64,000 bases of DNA. Source: an uncultured Candidatus Saccharibacteria bacterium (GTDB lineage Bacteria; Patescibacteriota; Minisyncoccia; UBA6257; 2-01-FULL-56-20). A program made the translations under genes and the position numbers. Location: contig CAYIOP010000001.1 in the NCBI GenBank assembly GCA_964365185.1, forward strand, positions 112,673-176,672, in the 5' to 3' direction. Positions 48,764 to 61,969 of the stretch are shown here, piece after piece. Within the stretch, counting starts at the first letter, position 1, and the number at the start of each line of letters is the position of its first letter. Below the pieces are notes generated by a model. It ran no database searches, had not been told where the DNA came from, and saw only the letters and a program-made list of their open reading frames with translations.

Positions 48764-49015
48764 CGGTTCGTTATTGGTTATTAGTTGATGGTTATTAGTT
48801 ATTAGTCAGCCCCAGGTTCTAGCCATTAGCCACTAGAGAGAAGGTTGCCCTCACAACAAACTTCTTTTTCTCTAATGACTACTGGTTAGATCCCGGAAAA
48901 AGTTCTGCACAGAAAGTGCCAGTTATCCCCAATTTCATCCACAATTCCCCACTTCCGTTTAATAATAAGCCACTTTTGCAGTTTGTCAAAACAGCGACTT
49001 ATGACTCTAGAAATA

Positions 49016-49044
49016 AAAAGGCCCTTTATTTTAAAGGCCTTTTA
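49016..49044. terminator. Bidirectional intrinsic terminator
   Basis: AAAAGGCC-loop-GGCCTTTT. Confidence 0.65.
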
Positions 49045-49098
49045 GCCAGAAGCTAAAAAAATATCCACAAGTTATCCTGTAGGGCGAGAAAATAGGAT

Positions 49099-49440
49099 TT
49101 AGGATTCAGAATTTAGGATTTCGTCGATTTTAGCGGCTAAAATAAAGTCGTTTTCAGATAAACCACCAATCGCATGCGTCCAAAGTTCAACTTTGACTTT
49201 GCCGTATGTAAGGAAAATATCTGGATGATGATTTTCGCTCTCAGCAATTTCTCCGATTTTGTTTACAAAACTTAGCGCTTCTTTGAAATTCTTGAATTTG
49301 AAATCCGCGTAAATTCTTTTTGGTTCAAGCTGCCAATTTGAAGAAACTTGTTGCAATAATTTTTTTGACTCTTCAATGGTTAAGGGCGGCACTCCCCCTT
49401 CGCAAGGAACACATTTTTTCTGGAATAGTTTTATTATCAT
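49099..49440 (-). CDS. Pterin-4a-carbinolamine dehydratase
   Basis: EGGVPPLTIEESKKLL...ENHHPDIFLTYGKVKVELWTHAIGGLSENDF, with the PCD [EDKH]xHP signature. Confidence 0.8.
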   Translation of the reverse strand: MIIKLFQKKCVPCEGGVPPLTIEESKKLLQQVSSNWQLEPKRIYADFKFKNFKEALSFVNKIGEIAESENHHPDIFLTYGKVKVELWTHAIGGLSENDFILAAKIDEILNSES

Positions 49441-49506
49441 TTTATTTTAGTTTACCCCAAATCAAAAACCGCGCAAGCGGCGGTTTTTGATTTATTTTAT
49501 TCTCCA

Positions 49507-49887
49507 CTATTTAAACCACTCTTTAAAGCTCTTTGGCCAACCTAAGAGAAAAAGGAGGGCGAGAGGCGCGCTCCAATTGGCGAAGCGTTCAATAAAATCC
49601 CAAATTGGCAAACCAACGAGGGGTCGAACGAGAGCCGTCCAAAATCCCCAGAAGGCTGCCCAAAGAAGAAAAATGCGAATTGGTTTGGTAAGAACAATAA
49701 TGGCTACAAGAATATCGAAGAGGCCAACTAGCGTCAGAAGAGTGGCTGAAGTATCGGCGTTCGCGCCAGTTAGCTGACCGACCCATTTAATCCAATCCGC
49801 CTTGCCCTGAAGAGCAAAGACACCGTGACCCAAAAACTCACCAGCCACACCAATCTTCAGAATCCACTCGATAGTTTTAGAATTCAT
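49507..49887 (-). CDS. DoxX-family membrane protein
   Basis: 126 aa with four TM helices. DoxX-like layout. Confidence 0.5.
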   Translation of the reverse strand: MNSKTIEWILKIGVAGEFLGHGVFALQGKADWIKWVGQLTGANADTSATLLTLVGLFDILVAIIVLTKPIRIFLLWAAFWGFWTALVRPLVGLPIWDFIERFANWSAPLALLFLLGWPKSFKEWFK

Positions 49888-50044
49888 TTTAGATTTTCAC
49901 TTGCGACCTTTTACTAATTATACCCCGTAGGAAATGATGAGAAAATAGTTAAATATTTTTGAATCAATAAAACTTTAAACTAAATGTGTTGTTCACTAAA
50001 AAAATAGGCAAGACGAGTAAGAGTGATTGAAAATATTTTATTTC

Positions 50045-50716
50045 CTACGGGGTAGACCAGTTTTGATACCACTCGCGCATCTGATTAATTTCAGCGGTTT
50101 GCGCCTGGATAATATCTTGAGCGAGTTTTTTAATCTCATCGCGATTGGAAGAAACTGCCATCATCTGGGCCATCATTACGGCCATTTGATGATGAGGAAT
50201 CATCTGTCGGATAAACTCGGCGTCAAAATCTTTAGCGCTCCCCAATGCTTCAAGATCCGTCTGGTCGCCCATCATGCCGCCCATCATTATGCCGGGCGAG
50301 TGATTCATCATCGAGTGGCCAAGATAGGTGACCGAATCAGGAACATCCGAGCCGTACCAATTTTTATACCAGCTTCGCATTTCATTAATTTCCTGGGTTT
50401 GAGCGACAATAATCATTTGAGATAGAGTTTTAATTTCAACTCTTTTGGATTTTTGAAGCGCGAGATTAGCCATGACAATCGCGTCTTCGTGGTGCGGAAT
50501 CATCTGCTCAATGAAGTGGCGATCTAGATCATTCATTGGATTACGATTGCCTCCCATCATATTATTCTGATTGCCACCGCCCATCATGTAGTTGTTCATC
50601 ATGTTCGGATACCGGGAATTTAAACCAACAGAAGCCAGCGATGGAAAAACATTAACTAGGACAACACCAACTAATATGCCGACGATTACGTAAATATAAT
50701 TGTTATTATTTTGCAT
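50045..50716 (-). CDS. DUF305 domain protein with a Met/Asn/Gly-rich region
   Basis: Two DUF305 repeats (MIPHHEDAIVMA..; MIPHHQMAVMMA..) and an MMNNYMMGGGNQNNMMGGNRNPM segment. Confidence 0.7.
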   Translation of the reverse strand: MQNNNNYIYVIVGILVGVVLVNVFPSLASVGLNSRYPNMMNNYMMGGGNQNNMMGGNRNPMNDLDRHFIEQMIPHHEDAIVMANLALQKSKRVEIKTLSQMIIVAQTQEINEMRSWYKNWYGSDVPDSVTYLGHSMMNHSPGIMMGGMMGDQTDLEALGSAKDFDAEFIRQMIPHHQMAVMMAQMMAVSSNRDEIKKLAQDIIQAQTAEINQMREWYQNWSTP

Positions 50717-50833
50717 TTGATTTTTTACCCTCCAATTTTTTAAACAAAGTTTTGGAAGGTGAATCTATAACGACTCCCTACTATCGACCCCTTAGTACGG
50801 GATTTCGCCGTCCTTTAGGTCTAGGGATTTTTA

Positions 50834-53023
50834 CTAAGGACGGCTCAACTTGCTTCTACGCAATAAGACCGCGTTTATAGACACGATCACGGTTGAAAGA
50901 GACATTAAGACCGCGGCGAAAGCTGGGGCCAGCGTAATACCTTGATTCCAGAGAACGCCGGCGGCAAGCGGGATGGCCACCACATTGTAGCCCGTGGCCC
51001 AAAAAAGATTTTGAATCATTTTTCGGTAAGTGAGTCGAGAAAGTTTGATGATTTTAACAATGTCACGAGGATCGTTTTTAACCAAGATGATGCCGGCGGA
51101 CTCGATGGCCACATTAGTGCCGGCGCCGATGGCAATGCCCAAATCTGCTTGAACCAAAGCCGGGGCGTCGTTGATGCCATCCCCCACCATTACTACTTTA
51201 CTGCCTTTCATTTGGAGCAACTTAACTTTTTCAGATTTATCCTGCGGCAAAACGCGGGCAAAGTATTCATCAATTCCCAAATCCTCGGCTACCCATTTGG
51301 CAACTTCTTCCGAATCACCGGTAATCATCGCTACTTTTATATTCATCTCCTTAAGCAACTTGATGGCTTCACGGGATTCTTCACGGATAATATCAGCCAG
51401 CCCCAAAGCGCCGAGTAATTGATTGTTTTCCAAAACATAGATAATGGTTTTTCCTTTTTTGGATTCACTGGTAATTTTAGATTTGATTTCAGAGGGTAAA
51501 ATGAAACTTTGTTCCAAAATTGCGTGACCACCAACCAAAATTTTTCGGTTGTCTATTTTGCCCTCAACACCCTTACCAGGAAGACGCTTAAAGTCACCGA
51601 CTGAATCGATTTTCAGGTTTCTTTTTTTGGCTTCAGCCACAATAGCTTTGGAAATTGGATGCTCGGAGTGGGAATCAACGGCCGCGGCGATTTGAATAAG
51701 CTCGTTTTCGGATTTGGACTGATTAAACCCTCCTCCGCTAAAGCTTTGGCTGGCAAGCCAAATATCAGTGATACCATACTCGCCTTTAGTTAAGGTGCCG
51801 GTCTTATCGAATAAAACGATATTAATCGAACGGGCCATTTCAAGCGCCAGACGATTTTTAATTAGGAATCCGTTTCGAGCAGCCATGGTGGTGGAAATGG
51901 AAGCCACAAGCGGGACAGCTAATCCCAAGGCATGGGGGCAAGCAATCACAAGCACTGCTACCATCCTCTCAAGCGCGAAATCAAAACCGGATTTCGCCAT
52001 CAGCCAAAGAATAAACGACAAACCGCCGGAGGCGATGGCAATGATGGTTAAATAGTAGGCCGCTCGATCGGAGAGAATTTGAAGTTTAGATTTTGAGGCC
52101 TGGGCTTCACGAACCAAGCGCATCACGCCAGAGAGAAAGGTGTGTTCACCGATTTTGGTAACTTTGATTTTAAGCGAGCCGTCGCCATTCACTGTGCCGG
52201 CAATAACTTCGGAATTTTCTTTTTTAGGAACTAAGGCGGACTCGCCGGTAATCATTGACTCATTGGTTTCGGATTTGCCTTCAATAACAATGCCATCGGT
52301 TGGAATCCGGGCACCGGGCCGAACAAAAACTATATCCCCTTCTTTAATTTCGCTAAGTGGAATAGTTTTTTGCTCGCCGCCCCGAATAACTTCGGCTGAA
52401 TCCGGCAAGAGCTTGGAGAGTTCTTTGAGCGCCCCTTGAGCGCCTTTCACCGCTCTCATCTCAATCCAGTGGCCCAAGAGCATAACCGTGATAAGCGTGG
52501 TGAGTTCCCAAAACAATGTTTCGCCCTCTCCTTTAATCGTCACAAAAACGCTGTAGCCATAAGCCGTGGTGATAGCGAGAGCAATTAATGTCATCATGCC
52601 GGGAAGTTTGGCTTGGATTTCTCTTAAGGCGCTCATAAGAAAAATCATACCGGCATAGAAGAAAACAAATGAACCCAAAACAAAAGGCAAGAATTTTGAA
52701 CCGGGAAAATCTGGGGCTTCGATTTTTAGGACATGGAGGGCAAAATCAGAATAAAGAATAACAGGAACAGACAAGACCAAACTAATCCAGAATTTTTTCA
52801 GGAATTGTTCGGTGGAGTGGCCAGCGTGCTTGCCCTCCCCGTGCTGCGTGTTTTGTTTTTCATGCTTCATAATTAGCGCCATCCCGCACTCCGGACACAT
52901 GCCGGGTTGATCTTGTTTGATTTCCGGATGCATCGGGCAAGTGTAATAAGCCGAGCTGTTTGTGTTTGCTGGTTTTGAGTCCTGATTTTTTTGGTCAGGA
53001 TGACAACAAGAGTGGTCTTTCAT
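50834..53023 (-). CDS. Heavy-metal translocating P1B-type ATPase (CPH motif, CopB-like; N-terminal CxxC/His-rich metal-binding region)
   Basis: N-terminal CCHP...CPMHPE...CPECGM, TGES, the TM6 CPH motif (IACPHALGLA), DKTGTLT, GDGINDAP. Confidence 0.9.
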   Translation of the reverse strand: MKDHSCCHPDQKNQDSKPANTNSSAYYTCPMHPEIKQDQPGMCPECGMALIMKHEKQNTQHGEGKHAGHSTEQFLKKFWISLVLSVPVILYSDFALHVLKIEAPDFPGSKFLPFVLGSFVFFYAGMIFLMSALREIQAKLPGMMTLIALAITTAYGYSVFVTIKGEGETLFWELTTLITVMLLGHWIEMRAVKGAQGALKELSKLLPDSAEVIRGGEQKTIPLSEIKEGDIVFVRPGARIPTDGIVIEGKSETNESMITGESALVPKKENSEVIAGTVNGDGSLKIKVTKIGEHTFLSGVMRLVREAQASKSKLQILSDRAAYYLTIIAIASGGLSFILWLMAKSGFDFALERMVAVLVIACPHALGLAVPLVASISTTMAARNGFLIKNRLALEMARSINIVLFDKTGTLTKGEYGITDIWLASQSFSGGGFNQSKSENELIQIAAAVDSHSEHPISKAIVAEAKKRNLKIDSVGDFKRLPGKGVEGKIDNRKILVGGHAILEQSFILPSEIKSKITSESKKGKTIIYVLENNQLLGALGLADIIREESREAIKLLKEMNIKVAMITGDSEEVAKWVAEDLGIDEYFARVLPQDKSEKVKLLQMKGSKVVMVGDGINDAPALVQADLGIAIGAGTNVAIESAGIILVKNDPRDIVKIIKLSRLTYRKMIQNLFWATGYNVVAIPLAAGVLWNQGITLAPAFAAVLMSLSTVIVSINAVLLRRSKLSRP

Positions 53024-53026
53024 GAA

Positions 53027-53299
53027 TTACTTTTTTTCAGTGAATTTATTATGGAGAACAGAAAAAACCAAAGCCGTGAGATAAGTATAGAACATAACCT
53101 GTACGAGCGCTGCTAATGAACCGCCAAGGGTTACATTTTGGCCGCGGGCGAGCCCATCGGTATTAGTTAAGTGCAACAACCAACCCAGGAATTGAGTGGA
53201 GGTTTCAGGGAAAAGGGCGACAAAGATCGTGCAAATAATATAGACGATGCCCATAGTTATCATGGCGGCTAAGGCAAATTTTTGAGTTTGAAGTTTCAT
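53027..53299 (-). CDS. Small membrane protein
   Basis: 90 aa with three TM helices, directly downstream of the ATPase. Confidence 0.4.
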   Translation of the reverse strand: MKLQTQKFALAAMITMGIVYIICTIFVALFPETSTQFLGWLLHLTNTDGLARGQNVTLGGSLAALVQVMFYTYLTALVFSVLHNKFTEKK

Positions 53300-53324
53300 G
53301 ATTTTTATTTTTGTTATGACCTTT

Positions 53325-53789
53325 TTAATTATTTTTTAGATTCCAAATAAATTTTCTTTCTTCTATTCCGCCGACCCGACTGATAATAAGAGTAATAGAT
53401 TGAATTAAACTACTCAACGATTTAAATTTTAACACGCCGGCGCGATGGTGGCCCCCGGGAGGATCCCCTTCCCAATTTGAAGGATTTATAACTTCGCCGG
53501 AGTCCAATATGAGCTTTGATGCCAAAACCATATCTTCTGATAATTCAACCGAGTGAGTGTTTAAGTCAACTTCAAATGACCGCTCTGATAAATTAGGCGC
53601 TAGATTAATTGGGGTGACGCTGACTTCAACACCCCCTTCGTTTGAGGTGATAGTTTGCAAGGCGAATGGATTCTCATTTAAAGTCGGCGGAGTAGTATTG
53701 TTGTTTTTATCGGAACGACTGCTTAAAACCAGCCCGAAGGCAACAATAATCACGATGACGTTAGCAAGTAGCAAGATTCGACTCTTCAT
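53325..53789 (-). CDS. Secreted/anchored hypothetical protein with a GGHH motif
   Basis: N-terminal TM, beta-rich region, WEGDPPGGHHRAG. Confidence 0.4.
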   Translation of the reverse strand: MKSRILLLANVIVIIVAFGLVLSSRSDKNNNTTPPTLNENPFALQTITSNEGGVEVSVTPINLAPNLSERSFEVDLNTHSVELSEDMVLASKLILDSGEVINPSNWEGDPPGGHHRAGVLKFKSLSSLIQSITLIISRVGGIEERKFIWNLKNN

Positions 53790-54210
53790 GCTTTTTGAAT
53801 TGGATGATTTTTCTTAATATGTAGACGATCCCGAAAAAATTAAAGAGAAGGCCTACGTAAAATATTTCGACCTGGTATTGGGATACAAAAACTACGACTC
53901 CGGTAGTTCCCAGAATTGGTAAAATATTCGCGAGATAATGAGTGCAGCAAGAAATCATCGCGGCCGTAGAGGTGGTGCCTGAAACAGCCAAAACTTTTTT
54001 GGAAGCCATCTGTTTGATGGAATTCTTAAGATATGAGTAGAGGCCGATTTGAATTCCGAAGCCGAAAGATAAACTTAAAATGAAATACCAAAACTCAGAG
54101 AATTGACTTTGAGCAAAATCAAAACTTGAAATCAAGCTGACTAATCCAAAATAAACTCCGATAAGAATAAAGGACGCGACAAAACCTTTAAGAATGGATT
54201 TAGTAATCAT
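53761..54210 (-). CDS. Polytopic membrane protein with a vicinal Cys pair (MISCCTHY)
   Basis: 149-aa ORF with about 4 TM helices, overlapping neighbours in the operon. Confidence 0.45.
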   Translation of the reverse strand: MITKSILKGFVASFILIGVYFGLVSLISSFDFAQSQFSEFWYFILSLSFGFGIQIGLYSYLKNSIKQMASKKVLAVSGTTSTAAMISCCTHYLANILPILGTTGVVVFVSQYQVEIFYVGLLFNFFGIVYILRKIIQFKKHEESNLATC

Positions 54211-54221
54211 TCTTAATTAAT

Positions 54222-55148
54222 TTAGACCCCACAACCGCCTTCACTTTTTCTCTCGACTGGTTGAGTTTGTTTTAAGATGTTGGCGTAGCCGTAGGCGCTG
54301 GAGTAATTGATTCCCAAGATTTCTTTCGGGTCAGCTGTCGCTAAACTCATATCTTTCATTTTAAGATACTTATCGATTGTGAGGTAGGTGTCGGGAAACC
54401 AATAAGAATTTACTTGGAGCGCGACTTGATACATCTCCTTTTCGGTGGCTCCGTTCGCGACCATAAGCTCAAGCAGGCCAAGCATGGCCATGCCGTGGTT
54501 GCAATCTGGAAAGTAAGTGGAGTTGCCACAACAGGGACGGTAGATACCCTTTGAGACCTCTTCGGCTAAAAGTTGCTGATCAGGAGTAAGCTTAATGAAT
54601 TCATGTTTTGAGTAATGATTCATTGGATTGCCTCTAGCAAGTGTCCAGCCGCCGGTCGAAGCGAAATTTTCCGCTCCGCCATATTGCGTGTCCTGCATTG
54701 GGCCTTTCTCTAGGATTGGATTTTTATTAGCTAAACCAAAAGCCCAGAGAAGGTTTAACCAAAAAGCGGAGTTTCTTTCGGTCATTATGATTTTGCCGCT
54801 CACGAGTCCGCTCAAAAGTTCTTTTTCCTCTGGAGTCAGGCCACCACGACCGGCATAGAGCGACTCAAACTTTGACGCGTCAATCACGCCCGTCTCAACC
54901 AGCTTACCGCCAAGATCTTGCCATTTTATCGGCAGCTCAACGCCTTCGGTTCGCAAAACCTCATTTTCTGAATTTACTGCTTCATTATTCTGATTTGAAT
55001 CAGCGCTAGATTTTTTTTGGGCGTTTTTGCCAATAGCGTAGATTTGAGTAAGTGCTAAAACCGCCACCGCTAAAATCGCAATCCATTTCCAGGAACTCCC
55101 CTCTTTGGGATGATGCGTGATTTCAAGATTTTCTTTTTGTTCTTCCAT
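54222..55148 (-). CDS. TM-anchored hypothetical protein with a PCCGNSTYFPDC motif and C-terminal GGCG
   Basis: 308-aa ORF with an N-terminal TM helix. Confidence 0.45.
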   Translation of the reverse strand: MEEQKENLEITHHPKEGSSWKWIAILAVAVLALTQIYAIGKNAQKKSSADSNQNNEAVNSENEVLRTEGVELPIKWQDLGGKLVETGVIDASKFESLYAGRGGLTPEEKELLSGLVSGKIIMTERNSAFWLNLLWAFGLANKNPILEKGPMQDTQYGGAENFASTGGWTLARGNPMNHYSKHEFIKLTPDQQLLAEEVSKGIYRPCCGNSTYFPDCNHGMAMLGLLELMVANGATEKEMYQVALQVNSYWFPDTYLTIDKYLKMKDMSLATADPKEILGINYSSAYGYANILKQTQPVERKSEGGCGV

Positions 55149-55162
55149 ATTTTTATTTTAGT

Positions 55163-56074
55163 TTAATGACACGACGATTTAGTTTCAGTTTCATCTTTTT
55201 CGGCAACCACTTTTTCTTCTTTATCTTTCTTAAAGGCGCGATAAACCAAGTAGGCAAAAATTCCGGGGATAATAATCATCCAGATGATTTCTGGAATTCC
55301 TTTGGCGATTTCAAAGAAGCTAGTGGTAACCCGATTCAAGAAATTGCCAACCGCGACTTGAAATTCCGGCGCCCAATAGGCGTTGCCGGAGAAGCCCAAG
55401 ATAATCATGGTTACGCCAATTAAAAGAAAAATACCGGCAGCTAAGAGATTGGTTGAATGAACATAGTGGGTTTTATCTCCTAGTTTATATTCAATGATTT
55501 TGCCCTGAATCAGTTTGGATTTTTCCAGTTTAAACCGATCGTAGAAATAAGCGGCCAGGAAAAGCGGAAAAACCATGCCAAAGACATAGGCAAAGGTGAC
55601 GATGAGGGCTTTCCAAAAAACCCCGGAGACAACCGCGAGGGTGACCGCGCCGGCTAAAACCGGAGCACAACAAGAAGTGGCAGCGCCGGAGAGAATCCCC
55701 AGAAGAAAAACTGACTTAGGATGCGAGGCGTTTAGTTTGGGTTTAATTTTACTTAGCATCGGAATCATGGTGATGCTTTTGCCTAGGAGAGAGAAGATGG
55801 AGAGGAGAATCATAAACGTTCCGCCGATTAGATACATTTCTTTGTGGAAATCCTGAAAGATTTCCGCGAGCCAGGCCGCCCCAAGACCAATCGGGATGAG
55901 GACAACCGCAATGCCCAGAAAAAACAAAAGTGTCATCCGGATGATATTTTTCTTTTCCCGAAAAGCCGAGGCGAGATACGTAGGCAGAAGCACGGTGATG
56001 CAACACGGCGCAAAGAGCGCCACCATTCCGGCCAAAAAAGCCGCAAGGATTGAGGCGCTAAAGATTAGTTCCAT
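55163..56074 (-). CDS. DsbD/CcdA-superfamily transmembrane thiol-disulfide protein with vicinal-Cys variants (APCC..., TSCCAP)
   Basis: FLAGMVALFAPCCITVLLPTYLASAF resembles the CcdA TM1 Cys motif; a second SCCAPVLAGA motif lies in a later TM. About 8 TM helices. Confidence 0.5.
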   Translation of the reverse strand: MELIFSASILAAFLAGMVALFAPCCITVLLPTYLASAFREKKNIIRMTLLFFLGIAVVLIPIGLGAAWLAEIFQDFHKEMYLIGGTFMILLSIFSLLGKSITMIPMLSKIKPKLNASHPKSVFLLGILSGAATSCCAPVLAGAVTLAVVSGVFWKALIVTFAYVFGMVFPLFLAAYFYDRFKLEKSKLIQGKIIEYKLGDKTHYVHSTNLLAAGIFLLIGVTMIILGFSGNAYWAPEFQVAVGNFLNRVTTSFFEIAKGIPEIIWMIIIPGIFAYLVYRAFKKDKEEKVVAEKDETETKSSCH

Positions 56075-56075
56075 T

Positions 56076-56579
56076 TTAATTGGTGACAGTCGCGGTGAAA
56101 TCCAACTCGACTTTTGGAGTTTGAGTGGAGTTGGTTTCCAAATAAACCGTCCGATTGGCTAAACCAACGCCCGATGGGCCGTGCGCGGCCGGATTAAATA
56201 TGGCTTCTACTTGAACGGTTTCTCCAGCTTTAATTTCGATGCTGGCTTTTGAAGCAGCGCCGCCGTGACCGGGCATGCCGAATGGCCCTTCGGTTTCACC
56301 ACTCGCGCTGGTGATTTTGGCAACGGTGCACATGCAAGAGGTATAAACTTTGTTGATGACTACTGGTTCGGACCCCTCGTTTTTTACGGCGAAGACTTTT
56401 GAAACATCGCCATTTTTCATGCTAATGGTGCCGAAGTCAAAAGAATTTTCTAAGACAGAGAGAATACTGGCGGATTGAGTATTGGGAGTCGGGTTAGATT
56501 TTCCATTACTCACGAAAATAACTCCGACAATAGCAACCAGTAGAATGACGGCGAAAGTAATAATGTTGGATGGTTTCAT
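56076..56579 (-). CDS. DUF1573-like secreted protein
   Basis: N-terminal TM/signal, then a beta-sandwich-like domain with a TSCMCT motif. Confidence 0.45.
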   Translation of the reverse strand: MKPSNIITFAVILLVAIVGVIFVSNGKSNPTPNTQSASILSVLENSFDFGTISMKNGDVSKVFAVKNEGSEPVVINKVYTSCMCTVAKITSASGETEGPFGMPGHGGAASKASIEIKAGETVQVEAIFNPAAHGPSGVGLANRTVYLETNSTQTPKVELDFTATVTN

Positions 56580-56738
56580 AGTTCTTGCCCTCCTAAGTTT
56601 TGGTTCCCAAAATTTTGGAGGGTAAATTTTTGGTTTATTCGACTAAAATTTTTGAATACTGCGGCGAAACAATGAAAAAACACCTTAAACGAGGTGTTTC
56701 GGCGGCGCACTACAAAAGACGCTTTTCTAAAAAAGTGT

Positions 56739-57206
56739 CTAGCGCGCCGAAATCAAGGCGAGCGGGTAACGTTTATTTAAAATCGAAAGCCAGGCCAAGA
56801 AACGGGATTTAAATTCAAAAAGATTTTCTGAGAATTGAGTTTGGGATTTTTGTGAATATCGAATGAGTTTGAGCTTTATCTTGGCCGAAATCAAGGCGCC
56901 AATAATTAATGAGAAAGCAATGAGTAAAAGCGCGAAGATGCCGGATTGGTTCAAATTGGCCTGAATGGAATTTTGGAGATTGCCGAAGTGCTCCAAGGTA
57001 GAGCTAATGGGGTCAACAACTTGGGCGCAGGTACTCGACAAATCAAAAAGACAGGAATGATGAGTAGCGTGACTTTCGTGGGCTATGCTCGAAAAACCGA
57101 GGATGCTGACGGTTAAAAAAGCCAGAAGAATTATTAACCCTTGGGGTTTCATTAGTTTTATTTTATCCCTGTAGCGTGGAAAGTCAAATAATAAGATATT
57201 AGTCAA
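56739..57206 (-). CDS. Hypothetical membrane protein with a His-rich segment
   Basis: Two TM helices and an HESHATHHSCLFDLSSTCAQ segment. The start may be the internal Met. Confidence 0.4.
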   Translation of the reverse strand: MTNILLFDFPRYRDKIKLMKPQGLIILLAFLTVSILGFSSIAHESHATHHSCLFDLSSTCAQVVDPISSTLEHFGNLQNSIQANLNQSGIFALLLIAFSLIIGALISAKIKLKLIRYSQKSQTQFSENLFEFKSRFLAWLSILNKRYPLALISAR

Positions 57207-57798
57207 TCGGGACTAATTCACCGGCTTTAAGCCGGGCGTAGAAGCTTTTGGCGATACTGGGACTCTCCGAAAAAGGTTCATCTGGCGCGCGGTCAGCGTA
57301 ATTGGCTATCACTTGCCCATTTTTGATTTCAACCATTTGGGGAGCAATGCGGTCGCCAATCCAAATGGCATTGGTGCCAGTATATTTTCCATTATTGTTT
57401 ATGGCTACGGCCAAATAGTAAAAAGTGCCGGTGCCGCCGGGATTTTGCTGAATGAAGAAAGCGGCGTCGTTGTCGCCGTCAGCGTCGAGATCACCCGTGG
57501 TCGGCACACTGAAAATCCTGGTTTCAATCTTAGTGGCTGAACCCGGCTCAATTTCTTTCTCCGATTCACCGTTTATAAAAATGTATTTCTCGCTTTCAAT
57601 AATATAGGTGGCGTTCAGCGGGTCAGCGGCGGCAGGGGTATCGTCTAGATTTTCGATATCGGGAGTTTCTGAACTATCTTTGCTAAAATACCAAATTCCA
57701 GCAGCAATCACTACAATAACTAACGGAATTAAAATTTTCTTCGAAAATGATGTTTGAGTATCCATGGGGTTAATTTTACGCTTATTTCCAAAGTCCAA
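57199..57798 (-). CDS. TM-anchored hypothetical secreted protein
   Basis: 199-aa ORF with a TM at residues 20-40 and a D-rich region (DLDADGDNDAAF). Confidence 0.45.
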   Translation of the reverse strand: MDFGNKRKINPMDTQTSFSKKILIPLVIVVIAAGIWYFSKDSSETPDIENLDDTPAAADPLNATYIIESEKYIFINGESEKEIEPGSATKIETRIFSVPTTGDLDADGDNDAAFFIQQNPGGTGTFYYLAVAINNNGKYTGTNAIWIGDRIAPQMVEIKNGQVIANYADRAPDEPFSESPSIAKSFYARLKAGELVPID

Positions 57799-58198
57799 GG
57801 ATTAAACCAAAGGCGATGAAATTAATGAGTTGGTAGCCAGCTTGAATTAGAAACCTGGACCAGGAAACTTTTTTGGAGTCGTTGTTCCACATGGCACCGC
57901 TGGCGATAATCGGCATAACAAAAGCCGCCCAAATCCAGATTGAGTTTTCCAGACCCGAGGCGTCTTGTGAGCCCGAAATGTAATAAGCCAAAACCCACAC
58001 TTGAAAAAGGGTGAGTAGAAACTGGACGGCATAGAGCGGAGCGGCGCTCTTTTGCATTTTTTTTCTGGCTTCAACGTCGTCGGGATTCGCTCCCACAATT
58101 TCCATCCACTTTCGCCCAAAAATGGGCCCGTACCAAATGGCGCCGAGCGCCATCGAAAACACCGCGCAAACAATTACCGCTAAATAGTTTATTGTCAT
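57782..58198 (-). CDS. DUF1761-like membrane protein
   Basis: 138 aa with four TM helices. Confidence 0.45.
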   Translation of the reverse strand: MTINYLAVIVCAVFSMALGAIWYGPIFGRKWMEIVGANPDDVEARKKMQKSAAPLYAVQFLLTLFQVWVLAYYISGSQDASGLENSIWIWAAFVMPIIASGAMWNNDSKKVSWSRFLIQAGYQLINFIAFGLILGLWK

Positions 58199-58302
58199 AT
58201 TGATATTTTAATGGTTTTTATAAAAAGTCACGCTTGATATTATCGACCAATAGTTATATTGAAATTATAACAGTTTTTTAACAATGTGTATTGAATAGAA
58301 AA

Positions 58303-58608
58303 TTAGGCCATGATTCGAATTCGAAAAATAATATCATCCTCGTTTCCAAACCCTTCTTTTTTGCGTACTTGAGCTTTAAGAGGCAAAAGATATGTATCGG
58401 ATTTTTGGTCTGGAAAAATTGAGGTTTTCCAAGTAGTTTTACCGATTACAACAATAACTGGTAAAGATCCAAATCCTCGACTTACTTTTCCAAAATTTTC
58501 TTTTATTTCTTTGGCTTCTTTTTTAGGAATACTGACGAAATGCCATCCGGCCATACCGGGATAGAGCCAAACTCTGGTTTTGATTTTATATTCCTTTTTT
58601 TGAATCAT
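58303..58608 (-). CDS. DUF1905-like protein
   Basis: 101 aa starting YKIKTRVWLYPGMAGWHFVSIP. Confidence 0.5.
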   Translation of the reverse strand: MIQKKEYKIKTRVWLYPGMAGWHFVSIPKKEAKEIKENFGKVSRGFGSLPVIVVIGKTTWKTSIFPDQKSDTYLLPLKAQVRKKEGFGNEDDIIFRIRIMA

Positions 58609-58632
58609 AACTCAATAAAAAACGATTTTGGT

Positions 58633-58917
58633 TTATTCTAATGTTCTCAAGAACTTGAGAATAGTTAAACCAAGAGGTGAAAGTTTGTGGCGAATGCTAT
58701 TGCCATCTGATCTTTTTAAAATCAGGCCGGCGATGGCCAATCGCCGAATGTGTTCGGAGGCGGTTTTGAAGTTAAGGTGGAGTTCGTTCGAAATATCAAT
58801 AACTGAAAGTTCTGGTTTATTATTTAAAAGTCCCAGAATTTCAATTCGCCGGTGGTTGGAAAAACCCCGAACCAATCTTTCTAATCTAAAATATTTTGTC
58901 CTTTTCCCCTCTTCCAT
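58633..58917 (-). CDS. ArsR/SmtB-family metalloregulatory repressor
   Basis: Winged HTH HRRIEILGLL...LSVIDISNEL...ASEHIRRLAIAGLI. Confidence 0.7.
   Translation of the reverse strand: MEEGKRTKYFRLERLVRGFSNHRRIEILGLLNNKPELSVIDISNELHLNFKTASEHIRRLAIAGLILKRSDGNSIRHKLSPLGLTILKFLRTLE
58636..58664. promoter_or_regulatory. Second related palindrome TATTCTAATGTTCTCAAG-AA-CTTGAGAATAG, overlapping the arsR 3' end and just upstream of the DUF1905 gene
   Basis: Shares the ATTCTAATGTTCT half-site with the 58952 site. Confidence 0.45.
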
Positions 58918-58951
58918 ATCTATTCCTGATTATACTATACCAAGTTCATCT

Positions 58952-58979
58952 ATTCTAATGTTCTTGAGAACATTAGAAT
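58952..58979. promoter_or_regulatory. Perfect 12-4-12 palindrome ATTCTAATGTTC-TTGA-GAACATTAGAAT: candidate ArsR/SmtB operator over the arsR promoter
   Basis: Sits 35-62 nt upstream of the arsR ATG. A TATAAT lies 9-14 nt upstream of the ATG. The TGTTC-N-GAACA core resembles SmtB/CzrA-type operators. Confidence 0.55.
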
Positions 58980-59070
58980 AGATGAAGGGGTGGGGCGGGG
59001 GTGATAAGAGGAGAAAAACAAAAACCGCCGCACGAGGTGTGGGCGGTTTTTGTTTTGTGCTTAGTGTTTT

Positions 59071-59268
59071 TTAAGCGCGGGAGACGTTAGTCGCGGCCGG
59101 GCCTTTGTCGCCATCGACAACTTCAAAAGTGACGGTATCGCCAACTTTGAGTTCATCGAAGGTAACACCTTGCAACTCCTTTGAATGGAAGAAAAGATCC
59201 TTGGCTTCGCCTTCGCGAGCAATGAATCCAAATCCCCTATCAGTCAGAGTCTTAATTGTACCTGTCAT
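59071..59268 (-). CDS. Cold-shock protein (CspA family)
   Basis: TGTIKTLTDRGFGFIAREGEAKDLFFH contains the RNP1/RNP2 motifs. Confidence 0.9.
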   Translation of the reverse strand: MTGTIKTLTDRGFGFIAREGEAKDLFFHSKELQGVTFDELKVGDTVTFEVVDGDKGPAATNVSRA

Positions 59269-59405
59269 TGATTTGTCTTTTTGTTGCTTTTTTGCTGCTT
59301 AGAAATCCGACTACATCTCTTAAACCTGCTTCTCTAGTATACTCTTATATTTCGACTTTGTCCATAGGGGGTGGAATTTAGGCCTATATTTCATATTAAG
59401 CCGCC

Positions 59406-59439
59406 CTCATTCCAGTGTTCTTAAAAACATTGGAATGAG
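59406..59439. promoter_or_regulatory. Third related palindrome CTCATTCCAGTGTTCTT-AAAA-ACATTGGAATGAG, upstream of the cold-shock gene
   Basis: 14-bp arms with one mismatch and a TGTTC...GAACA-like core. Confidence 0.4.
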
Positions 59440-59462
59440 GCAGGGATGGTTAGTAGTTTAAA

Positions 59463-59531
59463 CAACATTCTCACATTCTTCCTCCTTCGCTCTTAAGCTA
59501 CGGATGGACAGGTCAGAATGTGAGAATGTTG
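59463..59531 (-). terminator. Long hairpin with a 17-bp perfect stem, CAACATTCTCACATTCT...AGAATGTGAGAATGTTG. Likely terminator of the lexA-M-R-X block; a degenerate copy lies at 14696-14775
   Basis: Sits directly after the stop of the 59543 gene. On the minus strand the stem is followed by UUUAAAC. The related copy also follows a minus-strand gene's stop, at 14775. Confidence 0.45.
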
Positions 59532-59542
59532 CGGCGAGAGAG

Positions 59543-59935
59543 TTATCTCTCCCATTCTTTGATGTCAGGGGAAAAGTCGAGTTGGTAGTCAGGAATACCT
59601 AATGAAATACCAAATTTTGTGACTTCGTTGTATTGCTCGTTTTTACTTCTATCAACTTTAAAAACTTTGTTGCGGAAAATAATATAGTGGGTGGTGTTAT
59701 TTTTGAAGTCAACGTACCAGGAAGAATGTTCGCTATCCAGCGACTGGCTTATTTTTGTGGCAATGTTTTCGGCTTGGTCTTCAGGAATTTCAATAGTATG
59801 AAGCGTCCACTGGTTTAGCCAAGGAGTTTTATGTTCGTCGGTGACTTTTTCAACTTTGGTGCTTAAAATTTTGATATCTTTAAGAACCTCTTTATTTTCT
59901 AAACTTTCTTCAATAATTGTTCCGAGGTGGGGCAT
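59543..59935 (-). CDS. Hypothetical protein (130 aa), last gene of the lexA-M-R block
   Basis: ORF starts 25 nt after the endonuclease gene. No recognisable motifs. Confidence 0.5.
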   Translation of the reverse strand: MPHLGTIIEESLENKEVLKDIKILSTKVEKVTDEHKTPWLNQWTLHTIEIPEDQAENIATKISQSLDSEHSSWYVDFKNNTTHYIIFRNKVFKVDRSKNEQYNEVTKFGISLGIPDYQLDFSPDIKEWER

Positions 59936-59960
59936 GGGGATAACTTAAACTTGTTTTGCT

Positions 59961-60758
59961 CTAAAAACTTTTTAGAAAATCATTAAGTAAAAGCGAGCTT
60001 AGGGCGATTTGATTATTGGATAGATTCCTAACTGTTTGATATAAATTTTTAGCTTTTCTAGCAGCTTTATTCGCTGAAAGCCAGACTACTCCATCAATCA
60101 CGGCTATTCTGATGGTTTTTTTATCTTTCTTCTTAATAAAATTTATTGTCTCTCTAAAACTTTTATCTTGAGTTCCTCCACTGGTGGAAATAAATTTTGC
60201 TTCTCCGATTACAAATTTATCTCCCACTTTAAATACTAAATCTAAGCCCTTTGGTCCTTTGTATCCTAATTTTTTATGAGCAAATTCTTTAAGAGCTTTG
60301 TCTCCTCCGGCTAAAATTGCTACTTGACTTTTGGTGGTTAAAAAATTATCTGGTTTTAATATTGGATAATTTAATTTATATAACCACTTTTGAAACATTT
60401 GCCCCATCTGGCGAGACGACGATGAAGGACGCAGAGATCCATCGATAATTCCCTCAAGCCCTGTTCTGAAAAGACGCTCGCTAATTCTTTTCGTTGTTGC
60501 AGGATTTTTGTCTAAAGCTTTAGGATCTTTCCTTATAAACCCAACATAAGGATCATCAAATGGAAAACGTTCTAATTCAAGTAGGGTTAAAATAAGTTCT
60601 TTTTTATTTTTGTTTTTGAATGCGACTTCTATGTCCTTCCTCTTTTTTTGATTAATCTCTCGTCCTACTCCAATATTGACTGGATAGACATTACTTAATT
60701 TATCTAAGTATCCGTTCGAGTTAGCTAACTCAATACTTTTCTTTATCCAGGTATTCAT
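59961..60758 (-). CDS. Putative type II restriction endonuclease (PD-(D/E)xK fold)
   Basis: PD-D/ExK-like core GLDLVFKVGDKFVIGEAKF. The start was chosen at Met (MNTWIKK) at 60758, which gives an ATGA overlap with the methyltransferase stop. The longest ORF extends to 60857. Confidence 0.5.
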   Translation of the reverse strand: MNTWIKKSIELANSNGYLDKLSNVYPVNIGVGREINQKKRKDIEVAFKNKNKKELILTLLELERFPFDDPYVGFIRKDPKALDKNPATTKRISERLFRTGLEGIIDGSLRPSSSSRQMGQMFQKWLYKLNYPILKPDNFLTTKSQVAILAGGDKALKEFAHKKLGYKGPKGLDLVFKVGDKFVIGEAKFISTSGGTQDKSFRETINFIKKKDKKTIRIAVIDGVVWLSANKAARKAKNLYQTVRNLSNNQIALSSLLLNDFLKSF

Positions 60759-60759
60759 A

Positions 60760-61953: not shown

Positions 61954-61969
61954 ATTTTTAGCGTATCTT

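What the first reader, a model, noticed from the sequence alone, without database searches (positions are those of the whole stretch)
50045..58981. Metal-handling cluster with many proteins carrying vicinal cysteine pairs, next to an ArsR-family regulator with three palindromic operators
Thirteen co-directional, mostly overlapping genes. They include a DUF305 protein with a Met-rich tract, a CPH-motif (CopB-type) P1B ATPase with a CxxC/His-rich N-terminus, and a DsbD/CcdA-like membrane protein whose canonical single cysteines are both replaced by Cys-Cys (APCC, SCCAP). Three further membrane or secreted proteins carry CC or CxC motifs (MISCCTHY; RPCCGNSTYFPDC; TSCMCT). Two more have GGHH and H-rich segments. 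The block ends with DUF1761, DUF1905 and an ArsR/SmtB repressor. The regulator is flanked by 12-N-12 palindromes sharing ATTCTAATGTTCT half-sites (58952-58979 perfect, 58636-58664, 59406-59439). Vicinal CC pairs are a hallmark of Hg(II)/soft-metal ligands (as in MerT and MerA). DUF305 and CopB point to copper. The combination does not match a described cop or mer operon, so it may be a novel thiol-based soft-metal (Cu/Hg/Ag) detoxification pathway.
Basis: partly seen in the sequence, partly recalled or inferred. Interest (0 to 1): 0.65.

Follow-up and report, generated by a model that had tools for sequence, protein, structure and literature searches.

The report
Copper-pump island with cysteine-pair proteins
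A groundwater Patescibacteria genome carries a copper-export pump packed together with several uncharacterised cysteine-pair membrane and surface proteins; this core recurs in hundreds of species and looks like an undescribed way of protecting the cell envelope from copper.

Summary
Thirteen co-directional genes, all the quoted motifs and the three palindromes are present.

The conserved unit is only the core, 56579 to 50834: DUF1573(CxC), a CcdA-like protein with CC doublets, a 308-aa CC…C-x-H protein, a 4-TM M-x-x-CC-x-H protein, a GGHH beta-sandwich, DUF5676 and a CPH (CopB-type) ATPase. A DUF305/CopM gene follows at 50045-50716.

- In 80 related loci, a copper-type P1B ATPase lies within 10 kb in 61, and in 33 of the 34 loci with full flanks.
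- The neighbour of the CC-CcdA is either DUF1573 (31/33 loci of one clade) or a thioredoxin-like redoxin (45/47 of the other). They rarely occur together. This argues for an envelope thiol-reducing relay.
- The 4-TM CC-H protein is fused in relatives to the GGHH domain and to YHS, HMA or HMBD copper-binding domains.

Nothing supports mercury: there are no mer genes and no Mer profile hits.

ArsR, DUF1905, DUF1761 and the 199-aa protein are lineage-specific neighbours. The ArsR protein has no cysteine and no known metal site. No copy of its operator half-site lies at the promoter gaps of the copper genes.

Verdict: an uncharacterised variant of copper-stress envelope redox defence joined to copper efflux.

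The parts
56076..56579 (-). DUF1573 protein. It has an N-terminal membrane anchor, the motif S-C-M-C-T, and the conserved motifs FGMPGH and NPAAHGPSG. Proposed outside redox or copper partner of the CC-CcdA.
   Evidence: - Pfam PF07610, 55.7 bits.
- The CxC motif is conserved in 37 orthologues.
- Selenoprotein forms of DUF1573 carry UGC at this motif (PMC9312934).
- It lies directly upstream of the CC-CcdA in 31/33 clade-A loci. A thioredoxin-like redoxin takes the neighbouring position in 45/47 clade-B loci.
55163..56074 (-). CcdA/DsbD_TM-like membrane protein with 7 predicted hydrophobic segments. It carries the Cys doublets FAPCC (TM1) and TSCCAP (TM4) and a cytoplasmic-looking tail ending SCH.
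   Evidence: - Pfam PF02683, 38.6 bits against a cutoff of 27.1.
- Profile match to Thermus CcdA 5VKV at E 5e-8, with the first Cys of each doublet on the canonical Cys.
- Both doublets are invariant in 25 diverse homologues.
- More than 3571 homologues found and 574 confirmed genome hits.
- Hydrophobic segments computed.
54222..55148 (-). 308-aa protein with one N-terminal TM helix. Invariant motif YRPCCGNSTYFPDCNHGMAMLG and a C-terminal GGCGV. The C-terminal three-helix domain resembles CcmH.
   Evidence: - No Pfam or NCBIfam hit.
- More than 6648 homologues, all 'hypothetical'.
- Invariant residues listed.
- AlphaFold model with pLDDT 83.
- Sequence-level similarity is not significant.
- Present in 47/80 loci.
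53761..54210 (-). 149-aa four-helix membrane protein. Invariant motifs are GFG-x-Q, S-x3-M-x2-C-C-x-H, P and YQ. Proposed in-membrane copper(I) site.
   Evidence: - No Pfam or NCBIfam hit.
- Invariant columns.
- 976 representative clusters.
- Relatives are fused N-terminally to YHS, HMA or HMBD domains and C-terminally to the GGHH domain.
53325..53789 (-). 154-aa anchored protein, probably a beta-sandwich. Conserved motifs NTHS and W-x-G-x2-PGGHHR-x-G-x-L-x-F. Proposed outside copper-binding partner of the 149-aa protein.
   Evidence: - The gene overlaps the 149-aa gene by 29 nt.
- 18 of 28 orthologues hit Pfam DUF5643.
- Invariant residues.
- Fused to the 4-TM protein in L037 and in about 40 of the 150 best representative clusters.
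53027..53299 (-). DUF5676, a small two-TM protein lying between the GGHH gene and the ATPase.
   Evidence: Pfam PF18926, 49.9 bits. Found in 13/80 loci, mostly between the GGHH gene and the ATPase as here.
50834..53023 (-). P1B-3 (CopB-type) copper ATPase. Its N-terminus has MKDHSCCH, an HMBD domain (CPMHP...CPEC) and a His-containing linker.
   Evidence: - TIGR01511 copper-translocating ATPase, 587 bits; HMBD PF19335.
- The motifs ACPHALG, NLFWATGYNVVAIP, MSLSTVIVSIN and DKTGT are read.
- Orthologous position filled in 61/80 loci.
50045..50716 (-). DUF305/CopM-family protein with an N-terminal anchor and Met-rich tracts. It follows a 117-nt gap.
   Evidence: - Pfam PF03713, 178 bits. NCBIfam CopM, 114 bits against a cutoff of 90.
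- Met tracts read.
- Found in 6/80 loci.
56739..57206 (-). Two-TM protein (real start probably the Met at 57152). The outside segment is HESHATHHSC...C. It is a frequent upstream neighbour of the core.
   Evidence: - No Pfam hit.
- The orthologue family is present in 34/80 loci at about -1 kb from the CC-CcdA.
- Two Cys are conserved.
56677..56700 (-). Terminator-like hairpin between the two-TM His/Cys gene and DUF1573. It probably marks the 5' boundary of the copper operon.
   Evidence: Found. Comparable GC-rich hairpins with T-runs precede DUF1573 in most related loci.
58633..58917 (-). 94-aa ArsR/SmtB-family winged-helix regulator with no cysteine. A lineage-specific neighbour, not part of the conserved copper core.
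   Evidence: - HTH_5, 30.2 bits.
- Best solved relative is HlyU, E 4e-5; the alignment shows ELSVIDI at the position where metal sensors have ELCVCDL.
- Found in 5/80 loci.
58945..58986 (.). Perfect 20-2-20 palindrome, 28-69 nt upstream of the arsR start. Probable autoregulatory operator.
   Evidence: Equivalent perfect palindromes flank the arsR homologues in L003 and L007.
58635..58662 (.). Second palindrome. It lies inside the last nine codons of arsR and 27-54 nt upstream of the DUF1905 start.
   Evidence: The same position, just after arsR, is occupied in L003 (2674-2717) and L007 (7011-7054).
59405..59440 (.). Third palindrome, 137-172 nt upstream of the cold-shock gene csp (59071-59268).
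57199..58608 (-). DUF1905 (58303-58608), DUF1761 (57782-58198) and a 199-aa anchored protein (57199-57798). Co-directional neighbours with no detectable link to metals.
   Evidence: Pfam results. Present in 2, 2 and 1 of 80 loci.

Best explanation
The region is a copper-homeostasis island of a groundwater Patescibacteria genome. Its conserved core joins copper(I) efflux to an envelope system rich in cysteine pairs.

**Step 1 (family-level inference, strong).** The CPH-type P1B ATPase pumps Cu(I) out of the cytoplasm. The DUF305/CopM protein binds copper outside.

**Step 2 (inferred from homology and gene-neighbour replacement).** The CcdA-like protein keeps both canonical redox cysteines, each doubled. 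It carries reducing equivalents from cytoplasmic thioredoxin across the membrane to an anchored partner. That partner is the DUF1573 CxC protein here and a thioredoxin-like redoxin in the sister clade. Reducing power probably then reaches the 308-aa CcmH-like CC…C-x-H protein. The purpose is to keep outward-facing thiols reduced, or free of copper, during copper stress. This is the logic of the Scs and DsbDEG systems. The extra cysteines may give Cu(I)-binding capacity.

**Step 3 (inferred from gene fusions).** The 4-TM M-x-x-CC-x-H protein and the GGHH beta-sandwich form one unit. It handles copper at the membrane beside the ATPase. It may accept copper released by the pump, or it may be a small translocation path of its own.

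**Step 4.** The ArsR gene with its palindromes, DUF1905, DUF1761 and the 199-aa protein form a separate neighbouring regulatory unit.
For: **Copper context**
- ATPase motifs CPH, N-x5-GYN-x4-P and MSxST-x5-N, plus HMBD.
- CopM hit above its cutoff.
- In 80 loci found with the CC-CcdA pattern, a P1B ATPase lies within 10 kb in 61. All 59 ATPases with a readable TM4 motif carry CPC, CPH or CPD.
- In loci with at least 6 kb upstream and 8 kb downstream, the ATPase is present in 18/18 and 15/16.
- Recurrent neighbours are CsoR-family repressors (36 loci), DUF2933, HMA-DsbD_2 and two-component systems. An actinobacterial locus adds a multicopper oxidase and two DUF305 genes.

**Redox relay**
- Profile match to CcdA with the canonical Cys aligned. 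The doublets are invariant.
- DUF1573 occurs in 31/33 clade-A loci and a Trx-like CxxC redoxin in 0/33. In clade B the redoxin occurs in 45/47 and DUF1573 in 5/47.
- DUF1573 has selenocysteine forms with UGC at the CxC site.
- Precedents exist for copper-induced envelope reductases: the Scs review PMC10907172, P. aeruginosa dsbDEG and C. glutamicum tlpA, 235-fold copper-induced.

**The 4-TM/GGHH unit**
- The two genes overlap.
- A fusion exists in L037 and in about 40 of the 150 best representative clusters.
- 13 of 20 tested family members longer than the standalone protein carry YHS, HMA or HMBD.
- The pair lies within 1.2 kb upstream of the ATPase in 16 loci.

**Not cytochrome maturation**
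- No CcmC, E, F or H homologues in the window or in the 80 loci.
Against: - No experiment exists for any of these families. Direction of electron or metal flow, metal identity and protein partners are all inferred.
- Vicinal Cys pairs inside TM helices are also what a metal-translocation site would look like, as in MerT. The CC doublets are therefore not explained by a pure electron relay.
- The CcmH similarity is at fold level only. hhalign and Smith-Waterman tests are not significant and Foldseek probability is 0.47.
- The membrane orientation of the 308-aa protein is not settled by flanking charges: 2.5 against 2.0 K+R.
- No copper-sensing regulator is present in the window.
- About 25 of 38 CsoR-family neighbours elsewhere have a C-H-H rather than the canonical C-H-C fingerprint. 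Their metal specificity is open.
Confidence: 0.6

Rival explanations
1. **Metal relay instead of electron relay.** The CC-CcdA, and likewise the 4-TM CC-H protein, is a thiolate-lined transmembrane Cu(I)/Ag(I) carrier. The four cysteines of TM1 and TM4 would form the transport site. DUF1573 or the redoxin would act as outside metal donors or acceptors, as MerP does for MerT.
For: - The vicinal CC doublets are invariant and sit at the centre of TM1 and TM4.
- Cys/His tails are predicted on the cytoplasmic side: SCH on the CcdA-like protein, ATC on the 4-TM protein and HSCCH on the ATPase.
- Relatives of the 4-TM protein carry cytosolic HMA, YHS or HMBD domains.
- HMA-DsbD_2 fusion proteins occur in 9 of the loci.
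Against: - The canonical redox cysteines and the CcdA repeat architecture are retained.
- The neighbour in 45/47 clade-B loci is a thioredoxin-fold CxxC protein. That is the classic electron acceptor of CcdA.
- Importing copper next to an export pump has no obvious benefit.
Confidence: 0.2
2. **Copper supply rather than defence.** The module delivers copper to, or keeps reduced the ligands of, an extracytoplasmic copper protein. This is what CcdA/TlpA-Sco and CcoI/CtpA-type ATPases do for oxidases.
For: - TlpA-type reductases and slow-export P1B ATPases act in cuproprotein assembly (established knowledge; reviews surfaced).
- The GGHH beta-sandwich could itself be the copper protein.
Against: - No recurrent cuproenzyme, Sco or PCuAC gene appears among the families shared by the 80 loci.
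- The recurrent neighbours are repressors of the CsoR family and sequestration-type proteins (DUF305/CopM, DUF2933), with a multicopper oxidase in one actinobacterial locus. These are typical of resistance islands.
- Patescibacteria generally lack respiratory oxidases (own knowledge, not tested here).
Confidence: 0.12
3. **Ordinary thiol-reduction or cytochrome c maturation genes** that merely happen to lie beside a copper pump.
For: - The membrane protein is annotated 'cytochrome c biogenesis protein CcdA' in public records.
- The 308-aa protein has a CcmH-like fold.
Against: - No homologues of the E. coli haem-handling proteins CcmC, CcmE or CcmF and no CcmH sequence homologue occur in the window or the 80 loci.
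- Only two C-x-x-C-H motifs occur in window ORFs of at least 100 aa, each in a large, uncharacterised reading frame.
- Linkage to a copper ATPase in 33 of 34 fully covered loci, across clades only about 40% identical, cannot be chance.
Confidence: 0.05
4. **Mercury(II) resistance:** a mer-like uptake and detoxification pathway built on vicinal cysteines.
For: CC pairs in a TM helix recall MerT (own knowledge). HMA fusions occur in relatives of the 4-TM protein.
Against: - No MerA, MerR, MerP, MerT, MerC or MerF profile hit in any cluster protein.
- None of the recurrent neighbour families in the 80 loci was identified as mer-like.
- All linked ATPases with a readable TM4 motif have copper-type motifs.
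- DUF305/CopM and CsoR-family context.
Confidence: 0.03

Closest known systems
Scs system (ScsB-ScsC-ScsD) of Salmonella, Proteus and Caulobacter, and the copper-induced dsbDEG operon of Pseudomonas aeruginosa
   Same: - A DsbD-superfamily membrane protein is paired with an envelope Cys-motif partner.
- The systems are deployed against copper stress, and ScsC also binds Cu(I) (PMC10907172, PMC8900818, 10.1101/2020.08.17.255257).
   Different: - Here the membrane protein is a minimal CcdA type. It lacks the ScsB/DsbD periplasmic domains and carries Cys doublets.
- The partners are DUF1573 and a CcmH-like protein, not DsbA/DsbG-like proteins.
- The genes are physically joined to a P1B ATPase.
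- The hosts are Patescibacteria and Actinomycetota.
CcdA - ResA/CcmG - CcmH thiol-reduction branch of cytochrome c maturation
   Same: - CcdA homology with the canonical cysteines aligned.
- A thioredoxin-like neighbour in clade B.
- A CcmH-like three-helix domain whose Cys motif lies between the first two helices.
   Different: - No haem-handling genes.
- RPCC...DC-x-H instead of LRCxxC.
- No significant sequence similarity to CcmH.
- Copper context.
CopB-type (P1B-3) copper ATPase with DUF305/CopM
   Same: CPH, GYN and MSxST motifs, and a CopM hit above its cutoff.
   Different: The N-terminus carries an HMBD domain and an HSCCH tail rather than a long His-rich stretch.
MerT/MerP (mercury uptake)
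   Same: A vicinal CC pair within a TM helix. Relatives of the 4-TM protein are fused to HMA domains.
   Different: - No profile match to Mer families.
- No MerA or MerR.
- A different helix count.
- Copper-type pumps next door.
CopC-CopD / YcnJ (beta-sandwich copper binder plus membrane protein, sometimes fused)
   Same: An outside beta-sandwich with conserved histidines is paired with, and often fused to, a small membrane protein in copper loci.
   Different: - No sequence or profile relation to CopC or CopD.
- The membrane part has 4 helices and a CC-x-H motif.
- The outside domain is DUF5643-like.

Membership tests
CcdA / DsbD_TM (PF02683) | Profile match above the curated cutoff | tested here: met
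   38.6 bits against a cutoff of 27.1. Profile match to Thermus CcdA 5VKV at E 5e-8.
CcdA / DsbD_TM (PF02683) | One redox cysteine in TM1 and one in TM4, in P-C-x-x-P-like contexts | tested here: met
   The first Cys of APCC and of SCCAP aligns with the CcdA cysteines. Each is followed by an extra, invariant Cys. That doublet is the feature that sets the subfamily apart.
CcdA / DsbD_TM (PF02683) | Transfers electrons from cytoplasmic thioredoxin to an outside thioredoxin-like acceptor | not testable with these tools
   Supported only indirectly, by the Trx-like neighbour in 45/47 clade-B loci.
P1B-3 (CopB-type) copper ATPase | CPH in TM4, N-x5-GYN-x4-P in TM5, M-S-x-S-T-x5-N in TM6, DKTGT | tested here: met
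   ACPHALG, NLFWATGYNVVAIP, MSLSTVIVSIN and FDKTGT are read. TIGR01511 scores 587 bits. The motif definitions come from the published P1B classification (own knowledge).
P1B-3 (CopB-type) copper ATPase | His-rich N-terminal metal-binding region | tested here: inconclusive
   The N-terminus has HSCCH, an HMBD domain (PF19335) and a short His-containing linker rather than a long His tract.
ArsR/SmtB metal-sensing repressors | Winged-helix HTH_5 domain | tested here: met
   30.2 bits against a cutoff of 22.
ArsR/SmtB metal-sensing repressors | A recognised metal site: alpha3 CxC, alpha3N, or alpha5 D-x-H...H-x-x-E | tested here: not met
   - There is no cysteine in the 94 residues.
- The sequence reads ELSVIDI at the alpha3 position.
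- The protein ends soon after the wing.
- The best solved relative is HlyU.
ArsR/SmtB metal-sensing repressors | 12-2-12-type inverted-repeat operator at its own promoter | tested here: met
   A perfect palindrome with a 2-nt centre lies 28-69 nt upstream of the start. The arrangement recurs in L003 and L007. Binding was not tested.
mer operon | MerR, MerA and MerT/MerP/MerC/MerF components | tested here: not met
   No such Pfam or NCBIfam hits in the 13 proteins or in orthologue sets. None of the recurrent neighbour families was identified as mer-like.
CcmH (PF03918) | Profile match and the LRCxxC motif | tested here: not met
   - No Pfam hit in 37 members.
- hhalign probability below 1%.
- The motif is RPCC...DC-x-H.
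CcmH (PF03918) | Three-helix bundle with the Cys motif in the loop after helix 1 | tested here: inconclusive
- Foldseek TM 0.66 but E 3.7.
- In the model the motif lies between helices 189-200 and 217-231.
Scs system | ScsB-type N-terminal periplasmic domains and a DsbA/DsbG-like ScsC partner | tested here: not met
   The 303-aa protein is only the membrane core plus one extra helix. The partners are DUF1573 and an unassigned family.
DUF305 / CopM | Profile match above the curated cutoffs | tested here: met
   PF03713, 178 bits. NCBIfam CopM, 114 bits against a cutoff of 90.
DUF1573 (PF07610) | Profile match covering the C-x-C motif | tested here: met
   55.7 bits over residues 42-91, which include SCMCT. 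The corresponding motif in selenoprotein members is UGC.

The most novel reading that the evidence does not exclude
The module may contain two previously unrecognised kinds of thiolate-lined membrane copper(I) relay.
- The first is a CcdA-derived protein whose doubled cysteines move copper, or resolve copper-thiolate adducts, rather than only electrons.
- The second is a new 4-TM M-x-x-CC-x-H protein. With its outside GGHH domain, and with cytosolic HMA/YHS/HMBD domains in relatives, it would form an ATP-independent copper path across the membrane beside CopB-type pumps.
Probability: 0.2. Interest if true: 0.8.

Novelty: new variant of a known kind. Interest (0 to 1): 0.6.

Why it matters
- **Biology of Patescibacteria.** These bacteria have tiny genomes and few stress systems, yet hundreds of species keep this module. 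It is probably their main defence of surface proteins against copper.
- **Unannotated families get a testable role.** The CC-type CcdA has more than 3,500 sequence clusters, the 308-aa CC…C-x-H protein more than 6,600, and the 4-TM CC-H protein about 1,000 representative clusters. The GGHH domain also gains a proposed role.
- **DUF1573.** The analysis suggests that DUF1573 is a redox partner of CcdA-type transporters.
- **Actinomycetota carry the same CC-CcdA.** There the CC-CcdA and its redoxin partner sit among copper genes (multicopper oxidase, DUF305, copper ATPase), which offers a possible genetic route to test it.

Tried and rejected
1. **Mercury reading.** Rejected: no Mer profiles and copper-type pumps.
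2. **Sequence homology of the 308-aa protein to CcmH.** These tests gave nothing significant: hhalign against E. coli CcmH, hhalign against an E. coli plus P. aeruginosa pair, and Smith-Waterman with shuffles. Only the fold match stands.
3. **Fold search of the 4-TM model.** It returned only generic helical bundles. The afdb50 library was unavailable.
4. **Per-member Pfam scans.**
   - 4-TM family: only scattered hits with E-values of 0.008 or weaker, in at most 3 of 30 members.
   - 308-aa family: only scattered hits of E 0.016 or weaker, in one or two of 37 members.
   - Longer 308-aa members: no hits.
5. **Search for a copper sensor in the window.** No CsoR, two-component system or other neighbour family from related loci was found.
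6. **Rfam scan of 49000-60000.** Only sub-threshold chance hits.
7. **ArsR palindrome in the 80 loci.** One unrelated hit in L030, with no ArsR gene nearby.
8. **Orientation of the 308-aa protein from flanking charges.** Ambiguous.
9. **Literature searches for a description of the module.** Nothing specific.

Full report
**1. What is there**

Thirteen ORFs lie on the minus strand between 58917 and 50045. In order of transcription, Pfam and NCBIfam give:

| Gene | Coordinates | Assignment and features |
|---|---|---|
| ArsR | 58633-58917 | ArsR-family winged helix |
| DUF1905 | 58303-58608 | DUF1905 |
| DUF1761 | 57782-58198 | DUF1761 |
| 199-aa protein | 57199-57798 | unassigned, membrane-anchored |
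| two-TM protein | 56739-57206 | unassigned; HESHATHHSC...C |
| DUF1573 | 56076-56579 | S-C-M-C-T |
| CcdA-like | 55163-56074 | DsbD_TM; FAPCC and TSCCAP |
| 308-aa protein | 54222-55148 | unassigned; RPCCGNSTYFPDCNH and C-terminal GGCGV |
| 149-aa protein | 53761-54210 | unassigned, 4 TM; MISCCTHY |
| 154-aa protein | 53325-53789 | unassigned, anchored; PPGGHHR |
| DUF5676 | 53027-53299 | two TM |
| P1B ATPase | 50834-53023 | CPH type |
| DUF305/CopM | 50045-50716 | Met-rich |

The ATPase shows ACPHALG, NLFWATGYNVVAIP, MSLSTVIVSIN and DKTGT. Its N-terminus has HSCCH and an HMBD domain.

The exact proteins occur on contigs from Hainich groundwater, well H43, 0.1-um filter fraction. The closest relatives are Patescibacteria MAGs.

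**2. The palindromes**

- 58945-58986 is a perfect 20-2-20 palindrome, 28-69 nt upstream of arsR.
- 58635-58662 lies inside the last nine codons of arsR and 27-54 nt before DUF1905.
- 59405-59440 lies 137-172 nt before the cold-shock gene.

The half-site is strongly over-represented and concentrated at these three sites. In L003 and L007, the only close relatives that also have the ArsR gene, perfect palindromes again flank arsR on both sides. Their sequence differs...CCAACATTCT-NN-AGAATGTTGG.... The architecture operator-arsR-operator is therefore conserved and co-evolves with the protein. That is what operators do.

The protein itself gives no sign of sensing metal. It has no cysteine, reads ELSVIDI where metal sensors have ELCVCDL, stops soon after the wing, and is closest to HlyU.

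No match to the half-site lies anywhere in 50000-58600. A terminator-like hairpin at 56700-56677 stands between the upstream genes and DUF1573. Comparable hairpins precede DUF1573 in most related loci. I therefore treat ArsR and its operators as a neighbouring unit.

**3. Is the cluster conserved?**

The CcdA-like protein has more than 3571 homologues with E of 1e-5 or better. Both Cys doublets are invariant in 25 diverse members. A profile alignment to Thermus CcdA (5VKV) puts the first Cys of each doublet on the canonical redox Cys.

A pattern scan of one genome per species gave at least 599 matches, of which 574 were confirmed. Most are Patescibacteria, with some Actinomycetota and Chloroflexota. 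I called ORFs in the 80 returned loci and searched them with the window proteins.

| Window protein | Loci with an orthologue (of 80) |
|---|---|
| P1B ATPase | 61 |
| 308-aa protein | 47 |
| DUF1573 | 36 |
| 4-TM protein | 30 |
| GGHH protein | 28 |
| two-TM His/Cys protein | 18 (34 by clustering) |
| DUF5676 | 13 |
| DUF305 | 6 |
| ArsR | 5 |
| DUF1905 | 2 |
| DUF1761 | 2 |
| 199-aa protein | 1 |

Many loci are cut short by contig ends. Among loci with at least 6 kb upstream and 8 kb downstream, the ATPase is present in 18/18 (clade A) and 15/16 (clade B). The conserved unit is the core from DUF1573 to the ATPase.

**4. Which metal?**

Of the 61 linked ATPases, 59 show a readable TM4 motif: CPC in 25, CPH in 18 and CPD in 16. 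Those read through TM5 and TM6 have YN...P and M-x-x-S-S/T motifs of the copper type, and many have HMBD N-termini.

Other recurrent neighbours are:
- CsoR-family repressors (36 loci)
- two-component systems
- DUF2933
- DUF302
- HMA-DsbD_2 fusions
- DsbA-like and small thioredoxin-like proteins

An actinobacterial locus (L055, Arachnia) has a multicopper oxidase, two DUF305 genes, the CC-CcdA, a redoxin, a response regulator and the ATPase.

No mer component appears anywhere. Copper, possibly also silver, is the supported metal. Mercury is not.

**5. Two sub-modules**

*(a) The redox sub-module*
- In clade A (33 loci, 52-81% identical to the window protein), DUF1573 is the immediate upstream neighbour in 31, and a thioredoxin-like protein is never present.
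- In clade B (47 loci, about 40% identical), an AhpC/TSA-Redoxin fold protein with CYPAC follows the CC-CcdA in 45, and DUF1573 is present in 5.
- This near-exclusive replacement is the best evidence that DUF1573 is the outside partner of the CcdA-like protein, equivalent to ResA, TlpA or CcmG.
- DUF1573 also has selenoprotein forms with UGC at the CxC site. That marks the motif as redox-active.
- The 308-aa protein occurs in both clades. Its AlphaFold model (pLDDT 83) has a C-terminal three-helix domain.
- Alignments place RPCCGN in register with the CcmH RCPKCQN, but without statistical support.
- No haem-handling genes occur in the window or the loci. The parts resemble the thiol-reduction branch of cytochrome c maturation, but they sit in a copper setting.

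*(b) The 4-TM/GGHH sub-module*
- The two genes overlap by 29 nt.
- They are fused in L037.
- A profile search of 1.84 billion representatives found 976 clusters. About 40 of the best 150 are 280-373 aa fusions with a C-terminal PPGGHHR domain, and about 25 have N-terminal extensions.
- Of 20 longer members tested, 13 carry YHS, HMA or HMBD domains. These are the same cytosolic domains found on copper ATPases.
- One such cluster includes a Nitrosomonadales protein annotated only 'YHS domain-containing protein'.
- Inferred topology: N-terminus inside, the CC-x-H motif in the third helix, the K/R-rich loop and tail inside, and the GGHH domain outside after its own anchor helix. This fits the fusions and the charge distribution.
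- The pair lies within 1.2 kb upstream of the ATPase in 16 loci: 13 of 34 CPH/CPD pumps against 3 of 29 CPC pumps.

**6. Mechanism**

*Shown*
- Family memberships, motif conservation, gene linkage, neighbour replacement and domain fusions.

*Inferred*
- The pump exports Cu(I).
- The CC-CcdA carries reducing power outward to DUF1573 and on to the CcmH-like protein. This keeps surface thiols reduced or copper-free, as the Scs, DsbDEG and TlpA systems do.
- The 4-TM/GGHH unit binds copper in and outside the membrane beside the pump.
- DUF305/CopM sequesters copper.

*Unexplained*
- Why every redox cysteine is doubled. This leaves room for the rival reading in which these proteins move copper itself.

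**7. Comparison and novelty**

The kind of system is known: copper efflux plus a copper-stress envelope thiol system. The components are not described:
- a CC-doublet CcdA subfamily;
- DUF1573 as its partner;
- a CcmH-like CC…C-x-H family without any profile;
- a 4-TM CC-H family with copper-domain fusions.

Six full-text searches found no description of the module. I rate it a new variant of a known kind, interest 0.6. There is a 0.2 chance that it hides a new class of membrane copper relay.

Noticed in passing
window 56608-56619 and 50745-50756 (minus strand; 5' leaders of DUF1573 and DUF305): The 12-mer TCCAAAAYTTTG occurs only twice in the 64-kb window. Each copy ends 29 nt upstream of the start codon of a copper gene. 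Both leaders fold so that an upstream CCCTCC/CCTTCC pairs with the GGAGGG ribosome-binding site (z -3.8 and -2.8). L004 has the same element. This may be a shared translational control element. There is no Rfam match.
   Followed up: partly
L003, L035, L036, L038, L039, L045, L046, L048, L051, L052, L058, L066, L070-L072, L074 (ATPase genes): Sixteen of the 61 linked P1B ATPases have CPD in TM4 instead of CPC or CPH. They have P1B-1-like TM5/TM6 motifs and often an HMBD N-terminus. I do not recall a CPD class in the standard P1B classification. It may be an undescribed subtype.
   Followed up: no
window 59463-59531: A perfect 17-nt inverted repeat with a 35-nt loop: CAACATTCTCACATTCT ... AGAATGTGAGAATGTTG. 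It lies just downstream of the 130-aa gene and has no T-run. Its AACATTCT motif matches the operator half-site seen beside the ArsR homologues of L003 and L007, not the window's own half-site.
   Followed up: no
window 58635-58662: The second ArsR palindrome is also coding sequence. It encodes the last nine residues (ILKFLRTLE) and the stop codon of ArsR itself, so the regulator's C-terminus and a likely operator constrain each other.
   Followed up: partly
window 59961-61953: A type II restriction-modification pair lies here: a Tsp45I-family endonuclease (E 1e-66) and an Eco57I/N6-type methylase. The 60001-62000 interval has G+C 0.30 against about 0.41 for the window, which suggests recent acquisition next to the copper region.
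   Followed up: no
CsoR-family genes in 36 of the loci L009-L082: About 25 of the 38 CsoR-family repressors next to the module have a Cys...His...His fingerprint (ENHLxTH) rather than the canonical copper-sensing Cys-His-Cys. Seven are canonical. The metal specificity of the variant is unknown.
   Followed up: partly
L030 5045-5072: A perfect 28-nt palindrome, ATTCTAACATTCTCGAGAATGTTAGAAT, resembles the window's ArsR site. It occurs about 5 kb upstream of the CC-CcdA of an unrelated MAG, with no ArsR gene nearby.
   Followed up: partly
window 49507-49887 and 49099-49440: An unassigned 126-aa membrane protein and a pterin-4a-carbinolamine dehydratase follow DUF305 on the same strand. They recur downstream of the module in 7 and 3 of the 80 loci. 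Any link to copper is unknown.
   Followed up: no
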